Below, in pieces: positions 16,472 through 18,103 of a stretch of 64,000 nucleotides of DNA. The position numbers and the translations under genes were made by a program. The notes beneath the pieces were generated by a model, which had not been told where the DNA came from, did not search any database, and was given only the letters and a program-made list of their open reading frames with translations. This stretch comes from Candidatus Krumholzibacteriota bacterium. Its GTDB lineage: Bacteria; Krumholzibacteriota; Krumholzibacteriia; JAJRXK01. The stretch is from contig JAJDAC010000031.1 in NCBI GenBank assembly GCA_029262065.1, positions 1 through 64,000 on the forward strand, written 5' to 3'. How positions within the stretch are numbered: position 1 is the stretch's first letter; every line of letters starts with the position of its first letter.

Positions 16472-16888
16472 ATGCCGCGAAAGACACAAGCAGGGTATTC
16501 GGGGACGCCGTTGGCGCGAAAGCTCGGAATCAAGGAAGGCCACCGGGTGCTGGTGCTTGGGGCCGAAGCGGGATTCGTGGAAAGCCTGCAGCCGCTGCCC
16601 GACGACGTCACGGTCGCCGTGCGGCGCCAGGGGAAGGCCGATGTGATTCTGATGTTCTGTGCCGATGCCCGTGGACTCCAAGCGCTCGAGGCGTGTCGAG
16701 CCAACATGCGCCCAGCTACCGGTCTATGGGTCGCGTGGCCAAAGAAGAGCTCGGGACGCGCGACGGATCTGTCGTTCGATGTCGTACAGGGGGCGGGCCT
16801 GGGATTGGGGTTGGTGGACAACAAGGTCTGCGCCGTGGACGAGACGTGGTCGGGCTTGAGATTCGTGATCCGGACGGAGGATCGATGA
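16472..16888 (+). CDS. DUF3052 family protein.
   Basis: 138 aa. N-terminus AGYSGTPLARKLGIKEGHRVLVLGAEAGF matches the DUF3052 signature as I recall it. Confidence 0.6.
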   Translation: MPRKTQAGYSGTPLARKLGIKEGHRVLVLGAEAGFVESLQPLPDDVTVAVRRQGKADVILMFCADARGLQALEACRANMRPATGLWVAWPKKSSGRATDLSFDVVQGAGLGLGLVDNKVCAVDETWSGLRFVIRTEDR

Positions 16889-17403
16889 ACCAGCCGGCGG
16901 GAAGGAGTTCGTTGGGTCGATCGTTCTGTGACCGGTCGCGGCACCATCTGGAGCGAGAGTATCTACCTCGATTGCGAGTCGCGGTGGAGAAGCTGGGCCC
17001 CGCCGACATCTGGTGGCGACCCCATGAGGGCACGAACAGCGTGGGCAACCTGCTGCTGCACCTGGAGGGCAACGTTCGCCAATGGATCCTGGCGGGTGTC
17101 GGTGGCGAGGCCGACCATCGACGGCGCGCGACCGAATTCTCAGCGCGTGAAGGGGCCGACGTGGACACGTTGCTGGACGCGCTCGAAGCCACGGTGGTGG
17201 CGGCCGGTCGCGTGTTCGACGGCCTGAGCGACGAGAATCTTGCGCGTCCCGTGGAGATCCAGGGGTTCGAAGTAACCGTGATGCAGGCGATCTATCACGT
17301 GGTGGAACACTTCGCCTGGCACACAGGCCAGGTTACGTGGATGGCCAAATTGCGGGCCGGTCCTGGGCACGGTTTGGCGTTCTACGACGATTCCAAGCTC
17401 TAG
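16885..17403 (+). CDS. DinB/YfiT-like (DinB_2) four-helix-bundle metal-dependent protein.
   Basis: The real start is ATG 16885 (MNQPAGRSSL...), overlapping the DUF3052 stop by 4 nt (ATGA). Motifs WRPHEGTNSVGNLLLHLEGNVRQWI and HVVEHFAWHTGQVTWMAKL are typical of the DinB family. Confidence 0.75.
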   Translation: MNQPAGRSSLGRSFCDRSRHHLEREYLPRLRVAVEKLGPADIWWRPHEGTNSVGNLLLHLEGNVRQWILAGVGGEADHRRRATEFSAREGADVDTLLDALEATVVAAGRVFDGLSDENLARPVEIQGFEVTVMQAIYHVVEHFAWHTGQVTWMAKLRAGPGHGLAFYDDSKL

Positions 17404-17627
17404 CGCGGTGCCGGGAACTGCCCCTTTTGACGGCGAATTGTCATGCGCGAGTCCGTGATCTTCACGCTTTTCCGCGAAATTCGAACGAATTCGGCCATCT
17501 AGTAGTTGCAAAACCCCGCGAAACCCCGTAAACAGCCTGCACTAGCGATATGGCGGAAAGCCAGCCCCGCGTATTCGGCCCTCGCGACCGAAAATCAAGG
17601 CGAGGCGCCGACCTGATTCACACGACC

Positions 17628-17633
17628 AAGGAG
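17628..17633 (+). promoter_or_regulatory. Shine-Dalgarno AAGGAG, 9 nt upstream of the histone-fold gene start.
   Basis: AAGGAGattcagaccATG. This is a strong ribosome-binding site in a genome where many genes have weak or no obvious SD. Confidence 0.4.
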
Positions 17634-17642
17634 ATTCAGACC

Positions 17643-17891
17643 ATGGCCAAGAAGGCTGCCAAGAAGAAGGCCAAGAAGAAGACCGCACGACGCAAGAAGG
17701 CTCCCACCATGGAAATGCTGCTCGTAGGTAGCAAGACCAAGGCGGCGTTGAAGGAGGGCGGCGTGAATGTCGCCTCCGACGCGCTCGAGGGCTTGAACGG
17801 TATCGTCTACTGGTACCTGGATCAGGCGACCAAGCGCGCTGCCGCCAACGGGCGCAAGACCGTTCGCGCGCACGATTTCGTGATCATGTAG
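17643..17891 (+). CDS. Bacterial histone-fold (HMf-like) protein with an N-terminal lysine-rich tail.
   Basis: 82 aa. MAKKAAKKKAKKKTARRKKAPT, then MEMLLVGSKTKAALKEGGVNVASDALEGLNGIVYWYLDQATKRAAANGRKTVRAHDFVIM. The core aligns with archaeal HMfB (RVSDDARITLAKILEE...ASEAIKLARHAGRKTIKAEDIELA), sharing VS/ADDA...L...A...A..GRKT(I/V)(K/R)A.D. The track ORF starts upstream at 17550; I prefer ATG 17643 with its SD. Confidence 0.55.
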   Translation: MAKKAAKKKAKKKTARRKKAPTMEMLLVGSKTKAALKEGGVNVASDALEGLNGIVYWYLDQATKRAAANGRKTVRAHDFVIM

Positions 17892-17906
17892 GTCCACTGG
17901 ACCTAC
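17888..17906 (+). terminator. Putative stem-loop immediately 3' of the histone-fold gene (no U-tract).
   Basis: Inverted repeat GTAGGTCCA-c-TGGACCTAC, with 9-nt arms. The stem includes the TAG stop codon. It is followed by GC-rich sequence rather than a T-run. Confidence 0.3.
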
Positions 17907-18103
17907 CGTCATCGGGGTGCGGCCTCTTTCGAGCGGCCACGCCCCGTGACGACTCTTTCCTCCAGAGCCGCTCCGCCCCGATGCCCCTGCCACCACCGAC
18001 ATCAACTTCTTCAGCCTCCGCGCCCACAAAGTGCGCGGGGTGCTATTGTCCTCGGGCGATGGCAGTCGTAGACTCTGCCTGAAGCGAGGGCGCTGTGCTC
18101 TCG

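What the first reader, a model, noticed from the sequence alone, without database searches (positions are those of the whole stretch)
17404..17910. Bacterial histone-fold protein with an H1-like lysine-rich N-terminal tail
The 82-aa ORF has a 22-aa tail (AKKAAKKKAKKKTARRKKAP) followed by a ~60-aa core. By recall, the core aligns well with the archaeal HMfB histone fold (alpha2-L2-alpha3: VSDDA...L...A..GRKT(I/V)(K/R)A.D). It ends right after a short alpha3, as in the recently described bacterial histone singlets (Bdellovibrio-type and DUF1931-type). The gene has one of the best SDs in the window (AAGGAG, 9-nt spacing), a ~240-bp leader/promoter region and a stem-loop overlapping its stop. That is consistent with a highly expressed nucleoid protein. 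A Lys-rich tail fused to a histone singlet is unusual and would be a previously uncharacterised chromatin-protein variant.
Basis: partly seen in the sequence, partly recalled or inferred. Interest (0 to 1): 0.75.

Follow-up and report, generated by a model that had tools for sequence, protein, structure and literature searches.

The report
Bacterial histone with lysine-rich tail
This gene encodes a genuine bacterial histone, closest to the DNA-wrapping HLp histone of Leptospira, with a disordered lysine/alanine-rich N-terminal tail; such tailed bacterial histones are rare overall, but they are already catalogued, common within this family, and their tails remain untested.

Summary
Window 17643-17891 (+) encodes an 82-aa protein with a 22-residue Lys/Ala-rich tail (net charge +12) and a 60-residue histone fold that ends in a one-turn alpha3. 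AAGGAG lies 9 nt upstream of the ATG, the upstream intergenic gap is 239 bp, and a hairpin overlaps the stop codon, followed by a second, larger hairpin. Pfam gives no significant hit and DUF1931 never matches. Even so, sequence, profile and structure searches all place the protein with solved bacterial histones: HLp first (profile E 2e-16; TM 0.95, rmsd 0.7-0.8 A), then HBb, then archaeal HTkC. The HLp tetramer-interface residues (R49/N53/R55) and its main DNA-contact residues are conserved and invariant in the family. I therefore read it as a face-to-face (FtF), alpha3-truncated histone that probably wraps DNA as a tetramer, with four basic tails adding electrostatic DNA binding. The claim that the tail is unusual fails. 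Of 121 close homologues (window protein included), 120 have tails of at least 10 aa and 112 of these are K/R-rich. Published surveys already state that tails are common and mostly positive in bacterial FtF histones. Verdict: real, and a new member of a known kind. Tail function is still experimentally untested. Interest is moderate.

The parts
17404..17642 (+). 239-bp intergenic leader upstream of the histone gene; the promoter was not identified
   Evidence: The upstream DinB/DUF1572 gene ends at 17403. No sigma-70 consensus site and no Rfam match. The sequence is not conserved with the L001/L002 leaders, apart from the SD. GC is 0.577.
17628..17633 (+). Shine-Dalgarno AAGGAG, 9 nt before the start codon
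   Evidence: Read directly from the sequence. CAAGGAG is conserved in the window, L001 and L002. An SD of at least 4 nt precedes the tail start in 66 of 77 family genes scanned (75 related loci, L081 and the window).
17643..17891 (+). Histone gene, 82 aa plus stop (8.9 kDa, pI 10.5)
17643..17708 (+). Codons 1-22: disordered Lys/Ala-rich N-terminal tail (MAKKAAKKKAKKKTARRKKAPT, net charge +12)
   Evidence: Mean pLDDT is 48 for residues 1-10 and 55 for 11-20, with no secondary structure. GC3 is 0.81 and Lys is encoded only by AAG. Comparable tails occur in 120 of 121 close homologues.
17709..17888 (+). Codons 23-82: alpha3-truncated histone fold (alpha1 29-38, alpha2 47-68, L2 NGRKTVR, one-turn alpha3 76-78)
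   Evidence: AF2 core pLDDT is 88-96. Foldseek against HLp 9qt1/9qt0 gives TMt 0.95, rmsd 0.7-0.8 A. The family profile hits HLp at 2e-16, HBb at 4.5e-9 and HTkC at 5e-7. Invariant residues: R65, N69, R71, K72, T73, V74, R75, H77, D78.
17888..17906 (+). Perfect 8-bp hairpin with a 3-nt loop, overlapping the TAG stop
17907..17951 (+). Second, longer GC-rich hairpin immediately downstream, followed by CUCUUUCC; probably a terminator or an mRNA-stabilising 3' structure
   Evidence: Both hairpins together: -48.4 kcal/mol, z -6.6. No canonical T tract. Strongly structured 3' ends (z < -2) occur in 52 of 77 family genes scanned.

Best explanation
[quoted passage not shown] The 60-residue fold should form the usual head-to-tail histone dimer. 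Two dimers should then close into a ring-like tetramer through the R65/N69/R71 - H77/D78/F79 network. About 60 bp of DNA would wrap non-specifically around its basic rim through S30, K31, K33, K37, T73 and R75. The 22-residue Lys/Ala tail leaves the fold next to the 'paired ends of helices' DNA site. It stays disordered and adds +12 per chain, so +48 per tetramer against about -120 for 60 bp. The tail would act like a built-in H1-CTD/HupB-type polycationic arm, raising affinity, neutralising wrapped or flanking DNA, and possibly bridging neighbouring complexes. Shown here: the fold, the family placement, conservation of interface and DNA-contact residues, tail disorder and its conservation by composition, and the translation signals. 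Inferred: tetramerisation, wrapping, tail function and high expression.
For: phmmer against PDB sequences: HLp 1.5e-8, HBb 1.6-1.9e-4. Family profile against PDB sequences: HLp 2.1e-16, HBb 4.5e-9, HTkC 5e-7, then other archaeal histones. AF2 model: core pLDDT above 90, helix-loop-long helix-loop-short helix. Foldseek: HLp TMt 0.95 at 44-45% identity, HBb 0.84-0.87, HTkC 0.86-0.87, nucleosomal histones 0.4-0.6. Using the, 55 alignment, the HLp tetramer residues R49/N53/R55 and F63/D62 (PMC12701072) map to R65/N69/R71 and F79/D78. R65, N69, R71, H77 and D78 are invariant and F79 is at least 90% conserved in 56 homologues. HBb has S and D at the R/N positions. The five residues that give 52% of HLp's DNA-binding energy (S14, K15, K17, K21, R59) map to S30, K31, K33, K37 and R75, all conserved. 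Tail: low pLDDT; net +12, coding-type codon usage; retained by composition (K 43.5%, A 27%) but not by sequence in 112 of 121 close homologues. A strong SD and a structured 3' end recur across the family. The chromosomal context is native: no GC anomaly and HAD-histone-KorA-KorB synteny with a Krumholzibacteriota MAG.
Against: No multimer prediction or biochemistry was possible, so the tetramer rests on conserved residues and the nearest solved relative. HLp S52 and T61 are A68 and H77 here, and HLp K54 is G70. Pfam and NCBIfam give no significant histone hit. There are no expression data. Relatives of this family occur in Elusimicrobiota and Bdellovibrionales, phyla where Schwab et al. mostly report the 'bacterial dimer' class, so the class boundary is not certain. 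HLp, the solved model, was studied as a 63-residue form with only about 7 disordered N-terminal residues, so nothing experimental speaks to a long tail.
Confidence: 0.7

Rival explanations
1. It is a dimer-only histone that works like HBb (Bd0055) of Bdellovibrio. It would bend DNA or coat it end-on as dimers rather than wrapping it around a closed tetramer, with the tail simply increasing affinity.
For: HBb is the second-best sequence and structure match. The alpha1 lysine pattern K, K+2, K+6 is shared with HBb (PMC11390915). Family members occur in Bdellovibrionales and Elusimicrobiota. Oligomeric state was not tested here.
Against: Schwab et al. define bacterial dimers by the absence of the R48/N52 pair. 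Here both residues (R65, N69) are invariant, whereas HBb has S and D at those positions. HLp matches much better than HBb (2e-16 against 4.5e-9; TMt 0.95 against 0.84-0.87).
Confidence: 0.2
2. The Lys-rich stretch is not part of the main product. Translation would start at M23 or M25, giving a tail-less 58-60-aa histone, or a mixture of tailed and tail-less isoforms.
For: The junction residue is Met in 71 of 119 tailed close homologues and M25 in 113 of 119. For HLp, the authors rejected a longer annotated form on SD grounds. Tail-less relatives exist (MADQEMLLV..., MLLVGSK...).
Against: The strong, conserved SD lies before the tail start, not before M23. No SD of at least 4 nt precedes the junction in 53 of 57 tailed loci, and the junction codon is a start codon in only 9 of 57. 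The tail shows coding-type GC3 and exclusive AAG use. The frame stays open, with length changes in whole codons, across hundreds of homologues.
Confidence: 0.05
3. The histone fold is used for something other than chromatin, for example as a protein-protein module or an RNA/ribosome-associated basic protein. Some histone-fold families (DUF1931 pseudodimers, TAFs) do not bind DNA.
For: Schwab et al. caution that not all prokaryotic histone-fold proteins need be genome organisers. The gene neighbourhood gives no functional clue and is conserved only with L001.
Against: The residues that contact DNA in the HLp crystal structures and simulations are conserved. The RKT...D motif and RD clamp are intact. 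The pI is 10.5, with a polycationic tail. DUF1931 does not match.
Confidence: 0.05

Closest known systems
HLp, FtF (face-to-face) histone of Leptospira perolatii (PDB 9QT0/9QT1/9QT2; PMC12701072)
   Same: Best sequence, profile and structure match. Same alpha3-truncated fold ending in ...DF. The tetramer triad R49/N53/R55, the RD clamp, and the DNA-contact residues S14/K15/K17/K21/R59 are conserved.
   Different: The HLp form studied has 63 residues, with only about 7 disordered and not especially basic N-terminal residues. The window protein has a 22-residue tail of net charge +12 and three extra C-terminal residues (VIM). HLp S52, T61 and K54 are A, H and G here. The core is about 45% identical.
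HBb / Bd0055, 'bacterial dimer' histone of Bdellovibrio bacteriovorus (PDB 8CMP, 8FVX, 9EZZ)
   Same: Short-alpha3 bacterial histone singlet with the same alpha1 lysine pattern and RKTV...D motif. Second-best match.
   Different: HBb lacks the R/N pair of the dimer-dimer interface (S and D instead), has no basic tail, and acts as a dimer that bends or coats DNA.
HTkC, archaeal FtF histone of Thermococcus kodakarensis (PDB 9F2C)
   Same: Same alpha3-truncated fold (TMt 0.86-0.87; profile E 5e-7). Forms tetramers.
   Different: Archaeal and tail-less. Schwab et al. note that archaeal FtF histones generally lack tails. It has E at the N69 position.
Nucleosomal histones (archaeal HMfB; eukaryotic H3/H4)
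   Same: Histone fold, GRKT(I/V)...D L2 motif and RD clamp. Eukaryotic and Asgard histones also have basic N-terminal tails.
   Different: Only TM 0.4-0.6. They have a longer alpha2 and a full alpha3, and form a four-helix-bundle spiral rather than a closed face-to-face ring.
Lys/Ala-rich polycationic arms of other chromatin proteins: H1 C-terminal domain, mycobacterial HupB/MDP1 C-terminal tail, Chlamydia Hc1, Pseudomonas AlgP (from general knowledge; HupB is cited in PMC10919886)
   Same: Same type of composition (K ~43%, A ~27%, some P/T/S), predicted disorder, and presumably the same electrostatic DNA-condensing role.
   Different: No homology. The arm here is N-terminal, only ~20 residues long, and attached to a histone fold rather than to a winged helix (H1) or an HU fold (HupB).
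DUF1931 (PF09123) pseudodimeric histones (Aquifex Aq_328, Thermus TTHA1554-type)
   Same: Bacterial histone-fold proteins. NCBI and the PDB depositors use the DUF1931 label for some relatives, including HLp.
   Different: PF09123 does not match the window protein or any of its 55 aligned homologues. DUF1931 proteins are doublets that lack the DNA-binding residues.

Membership tests
Histone-fold superfamily | Helix - loop - long central helix - loop - helix architecture superposable on solved histones | tested here: met
   AF2 model with core pLDDT above 90. The top 50 Foldseek PDB hits are all histone-fold proteins (histones and NF-Y); best TMt 0.95.
Histone-fold superfamily | L2 motif R-K-T-x-x-x-x-D with an Arg-Asp clamp | tested here: met
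   R71-K72-T73-V74-R75-A76-H77-D78. All but A76 are invariant in 56 homologues.
alpha3-truncated histones (Schwab et al. 2024) | alpha3 of only 3-4 residues at the C terminus, and a shortened alpha2 | tested here: met
   DSSP on the model gives alpha2 at 47-68 (22 residues) and a 3-residue helix at 76-78, and the protein ends 4 residues later.
Face-to-face (FtF) histones | Conserved Arg and Asn at the end of alpha2 (HMM R48/N52; HLp R49/N53) plus L2 Arg (HLp R55), which make the dimer-dimer contact | tested here: met
   R65, N69 and R71 align to HLp R49, N53 and R55 and are invariant.
Face-to-face (FtF) histones | Forms a closed homotetramer (this predicted quaternary structure is the criterion used to define the class) | not testable with these tools
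   Only single-chain prediction was available. This needs AF-Multimer or SEC-MALS.
Face-to-face (FtF) histones | Wraps ~60 bp of DNA non-specifically | not testable with these tools
   Only conservation of the DNA-contact residues S30, K31, K33, K37, T73 and R75 could be checked.
Bacterial dimer histones (HBb type) | Lack of the R48/N52 interface pair; clusters by sequence with Bd0055 | tested here: not met
   R65 and N69 are present and invariant, whereas HBb has S and D there. The HBb match is about 7 orders of magnitude weaker than the HLp match with the family profile.
Pfam DUF1931 (PF09123) pseudodimers | Match to PF09123; tandem double histone fold | tested here: not met
   No PF09123 hit at E<=10 for the protein or its core, or at E<=1 for any of its 55 aligned homologues. 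It has a single fold.
Pfam CBFD_NFYB_HMF (PF00808) / NCBIfam archaea_histone (NF043032) | Score above the curated cut-off | tested here: not met
   PF00808 is absent for the window protein and sub-threshold (best 0.011) in 9 of 56 alignment members. NF043032 scores 14 bits against a cut-off of 50.
Linker histone H1 | Winged-helix globular domain flanked by a Lys/Ala/Pro-rich C-terminal domain | tested here: not met
   No globular H1 domain: no Pfam hit, and the only folded part is a histone fold. Only the composition of the tail resembles the H1 CTD.

The most novel reading that the evidence does not exclude
The tail is more than a charge supplement. A 9-kDa chain would combine 'core' and 'linker' histone functions: the tetramer wraps DNA while four H1-CTD-like arms bridge neighbouring particles or drive condensation. 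The lysines could be reversibly acetylated, giving a bacterial counterpart of tail-based chromatin regulation. The tail is kept by composition across several phyla. It is encoded with GC-rich AAG codons in a ~62% GC genome. Both points argue for selection rather than the accidental read-through into AT-rich DNA proposed for tail origin (PMC10919886).
Probability: 0.2. Interest if true: 0.7.

Novelty: new member of a known kind. Interest (0 to 1): 0.4.

Why it matters
Histones are reported in fewer than 2% of bacterial genomes (PMC12701072), and only two bacterial types (HBb, HLp) have been studied, both essentially tail-less. This gene belongs to a large, wholly uncultured clade in which a Lys/Ala-rich N-terminal tail is the rule. 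The clade includes Krumholzibacteriota-like, Planctomycetota, Acidobacteriota, Myxococcota and Bdellovibrionota MAGs. It gives a compact natural system, a 60-aa fold with a tail of 0 to 50 residues, for asking what a histone tail contributes to DNA wrapping and compaction and how easily tails are gained and lost. It does not change the current picture, because surveys have already recorded that bacterial FtF histones often carry positive tails. A practical point: Pfam and NCBIfam miss this family, so annotation pipelines leave most members as hypothetical proteins.

Tried and rejected
- **Pfam and NCBIfam scans** of the full protein, the core alone and 55 homologues gave no significant histone hit. 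There were only sub-threshold CENP-T_C, CBFD_NFYB_HMF, CENP-X and TAF10 matches and a spurious weak HEM4 match. By itself this would have wrongly 'refuted' the histone reading.
- **Rfam** on the leader and 3' region at E<=1, and on the whole window at gathering thresholds, found nothing. There are no tRNAs in the window.
- **Consensus promoter and terminator scan** found nothing.
- **Leader alignment** with the two closest genomic loci showed no conserved element apart from the SD and start.
- **Source organism:** The Krumholzibacteriota affinity is inferred only from histone identity (82-83%) and synteny with L001.
- **Viral contigs** contain no relative. The afdb50 fold library was unavailable.
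- **tblastn** for HU or a second histone in the window found none, which says little for 64 kb.
- **Internal start at the tail/core junction** was considered and rejected as the main start.
- **113-aa ORF from 17550** was rejected.

Full report
**1. What is in the sequence**

Window 17643-17891 (+) is an 82-codon ORF. Its product is MAKKAAKKKAKKKTARRKKAPT-MEMLLVGSKTKAALKEGGVNVASDALEGLNGIVYWYLDQATKRAAANGRKTVRAHDFVIM.

- **Translation signals.** AAGGAG (17628-17633) lies 9 nt before the ATG.
- **Upstream gap.** The preceding gene, a DinB/DUF1572-family protein, stops at 17403. That leaves 239 bp.
- **3' structure.** A perfect 8-bp hairpin (17888-17906) overlaps the TAG. A second, longer GC-rich hairpin (17907-17951) follows directly. 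The pair folds at -48.4 kcal/mol, z = -6.6, and none of 200 shuffles folds as well.
- **Negative scans.** No sigma-70 consensus promoter, T-tract terminator or Rfam family was found.

A longer in-frame ORF from 17550 is not the gene, for three reasons. The SD lies inside it. An independent gene call on an identical Logan contig gives 82 aa. In the two closest genomic loci, only CAAGGAG plus ATG/GTG-GCC-AAG-AAG is conserved upstream.

**2. Is the core a histone?**

Pfam and NCBIfam say nothing significant. The full protein, the core alone and 55 homologues give no hit above threshold. DUF1931 never appears. CBFD_NFYB_HMF, CENP-T_C, CENP-X and TAF10 appear only below threshold in a minority of members.

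Comparison with solved structures is unambiguous.

| Target | phmmer E | Profile of 56 homologues, E | Foldseek TM (target-normalised), rmsd |
|---|---|---|---|
| HLp, Leptospira perolatii (9QT0/9QT1) | 1.5e-8 | 2.1e-16 | 0.95, 0.7-0.8 A, 44-45% identity |
| HBb/Bd0055, Bdellovibrio | 1.6-1.9e-4 | 4.5e-9 | 0.84-0.87 |
| HTkC, archaeal FtF | 0.1 | 5e-7 | 0.86-0.87 |
| Nucleosomal and NF-Y histones | not significant | 0.013-0.31 (Asgard histones, NF-YB) | 0.4-0.6 |

The profile also reaches MJ1647, the M. kandleri doublet and Asgard histones. The AlphaFold2 model built on the homologue alignment has pLDDT 88-96 over residues 21-80. It shows alpha1 at 29-38, alpha2 at 47-68, and a single helical turn at 76-78 just before the C terminus. 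So the core is a histone fold of the alpha3-truncated kind defined by Schwab et al. 2024.

**3. Which kind of bacterial histone?**

The literature separates two classes.
- 'Bacterial dimer' histones (HBb) lack an Arg/Asn pair at the end of alpha2.
- Face-to-face (FtF) histones (HLp, HTkC) use that pair to close two dimers into a ring.

In HLp, the interface is R49/S52/N53 against R55/T61/F63. With the, 55 alignment, these map to R65/A68/N69 and R71/H77/F79 in the window protein. R65, N69, R71, H77 and D78 are invariant, and F79 is at least 90% conserved, in 56 homologues. HBb has Ser and Asp at the Arg/Asn positions.

The five residues that supply 52% of HLp's DNA-binding energy are S14, K15, K17, K21 and R59. 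They map to S30, K31, K33, K37 and R75, all conserved.

I therefore place the protein in the FtF class. I infer, but could not test, a tetramer that wraps about 60 bp of DNA as HLp does. The main rival is a dimer-only, HBb-like mode. It remains possible because no multimer prediction or biochemistry was available.

**4. The tail**

- Residues 1-22 have low model confidence (pLDDT about 48-55) and no secondary structure.
- The net charge is +12, against +2 for the core. The full protein has pI 10.5.
- The segment is genuinely coding. GC3 is 0.81, like the core at 0.85, and Lys is always AAG. The region sits at about 57-65% GC with no compositional anomaly.

The tail is the rule in this clade, not an oddity.
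- Of 121 close homologues (window protein included), 120 have an N-terminal extension of at least 10 residues (median 22, maximum 51).
- In 112 of them the extension is at least 35% K+R.
- The pooled composition is K 43.5%, A 27%, R 7%, T 5%, S 5%, P 4%. That is H1-CTD-like in composition only.
- The tails differ freely in sequence and length, the pattern expected for a disordered region selected for composition.

In the wider family, a core-only search of 1.84 billion cluster representatives returned 181 hits. Of the 110 singlets among the best 150 hits, 24 have K-rich tails of at least 10 residues. Others are tail-less or differently extended.

Across genomes, tail length tracks lineage.

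| Lineage | N terminus or gene product |
|---|---|
| Krumholzibacteriota MAGs | 88-96-aa proteins (tails of about 28-36 residues) |
| Elusimicrobiota | about 4 residues (MAKKMEPL...) |
| Several Planctomycetia | none (MADQEMLLV...) |
| Kofleriaceae | K/G-rich |

An internal start at the junction is unlikely to be the main one. No SD of at least 4 nt precedes it in 53 of 57 tailed loci, and the junction codon is a start codon in only 9 of 57. However, Met is kept at that position in 71 of 119 close homologues. It may be a fossil of the ancestral start.

**5. Mechanistic reading**

The tail emerges at the N terminus of alpha1. This is the 'paired ends of helices' DNA site in the HLp-DNA crystals (A13/S14/K15, which map to G29/S30/K31). 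Four tails would add +48 per tetramer against about -120 for 60 bp.

I infer that the tails raise non-specific affinity, neutralise wrapped or flanking DNA, and may bridge complexes. Lys/Ala-rich arms of H1, mycobacterial HupB and Chlamydia Hc1 are known to act this way (general knowledge; HupB is cited).

The strong SD occurs in 66 of 77 family genes scanned (75 related loci, L081 and the window) and a stable 3' structure in 52 of 77. Both fit a monocistronic, well-expressed gene, but no expression data were examined.

**6. Context and origin**

The flanking genes are ordinary chromosomal ones: a HAD hydrolase, a 138-aa hypothetical protein, a DinB-like protein, a CBS-domain protein, 2-oxoglutarate:ferredoxin oxidoreductase alpha and beta, and a PfkB/cytidylyltransferase. 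The order HAD - histone - KorA - KorB recurs only in L001, a Krumholzibacteriota MAG, with 64-69% identity for KorAB. That MAG also has one of the most similar histones (82%). No relative was found in viral contigs.

**7. Comparison with what is known, and novelty**

Schwab et al. [quoted passage not shown] Their source data list bacterial FtF lengths up to about 100 aa. A 2024 review discusses easy gain of Lys-rich tails by upstream start codons, including in Leptospira histones. JGI already annotates many homologues as 'histone H3/H4'.

So the class, and the existence of basic tails on it, are known. This gene is a new, clean member from an uncultured clade. Three things remain open.
- The function of such tails has not been tested experimentally. 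HLp was studied as a near tail-less 63-residue form.
- The oligomeric state of this clade is unknown.
- Whether the lysines are modified is unknown.

Interest is moderate (0.4). The most novel reading not excluded is a combined core-plus-linker histone with regulated tails. I give it a probability of about 0.2.

Noticed in passing
window 17907-17951 (+), just outside the flagged interval: A second, longer GC-rich hairpin directly abuts the hairpin that overlaps the stop codon. The tandem pair has z = -6.6 but no T tract. Strongly structured 3' ends recur in 52 of 77 family genes scanned.
   Followed up: partly
window 17709-17711 (codon M23) and homologues P0001-P0120: The residue at the tail/core junction is Met in 71 of 119 tailed close homologues, and Val/Leu in 18 more. 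In more distant tailed loci the junction codon is a start codon in only 9 of 57, and no SD precedes it. It may be a fossil of the ancestral start codon from before the tail was added.
   Followed up: partly
proteins P0121-P0129, P0139, P0141, P0142 and others; not in the window: 36 of the 150 best cluster representatives are tandem doublets of this alpha3-truncated fold (about 117-132 aa). These are natural pseudodimers of the HLp/HBb-type fold and are distinct from Pfam DUF1931 doublets.
   Followed up: no
proteins P0161, P0163, P0225, P0255, P0267; not in the window: Some relatives begin with a hydrophobic, signal-peptide-like N terminus (for example MKTIALPVLFIVSAVVAAGAATSF...). This suggests exported histone-fold proteins, which would be odd for a DNA-binding fold.
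   Followed up: no
proteins P0131, P0132, P0137, P0157; not in the window: A few singlet relatives have no basic N tail. They carry a 30-60-residue acidic, Glu/Ala/Pro-rich C-terminal extension instead, the opposite charge solution.
   Followed up: no
protein P0183 (650 aa); not in the window: A long protein ends in this histone fold (residues 592-648). Further upstream it contains a segment that looks like a sigma-70 region-4 helix-turn-helix (...REVAEETGVSRPMVSKIKRSALEKLR...). It could be a fusion or a gene-calling artefact.
   Followed up: no
window 17643-17888 and 55 homologues: This whole histone family is invisible to Pfam-A and NCBIfam at curated thresholds. Most database members are unnamed or 'hypothetical'.
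   Followed up: yes
window 16472-16888 (+): A 138-aa ORF between the HAD gene and the DinB-like gene has no Pfam match. It is absent from the otherwise syntenic L001 locus.
   Followed up: no
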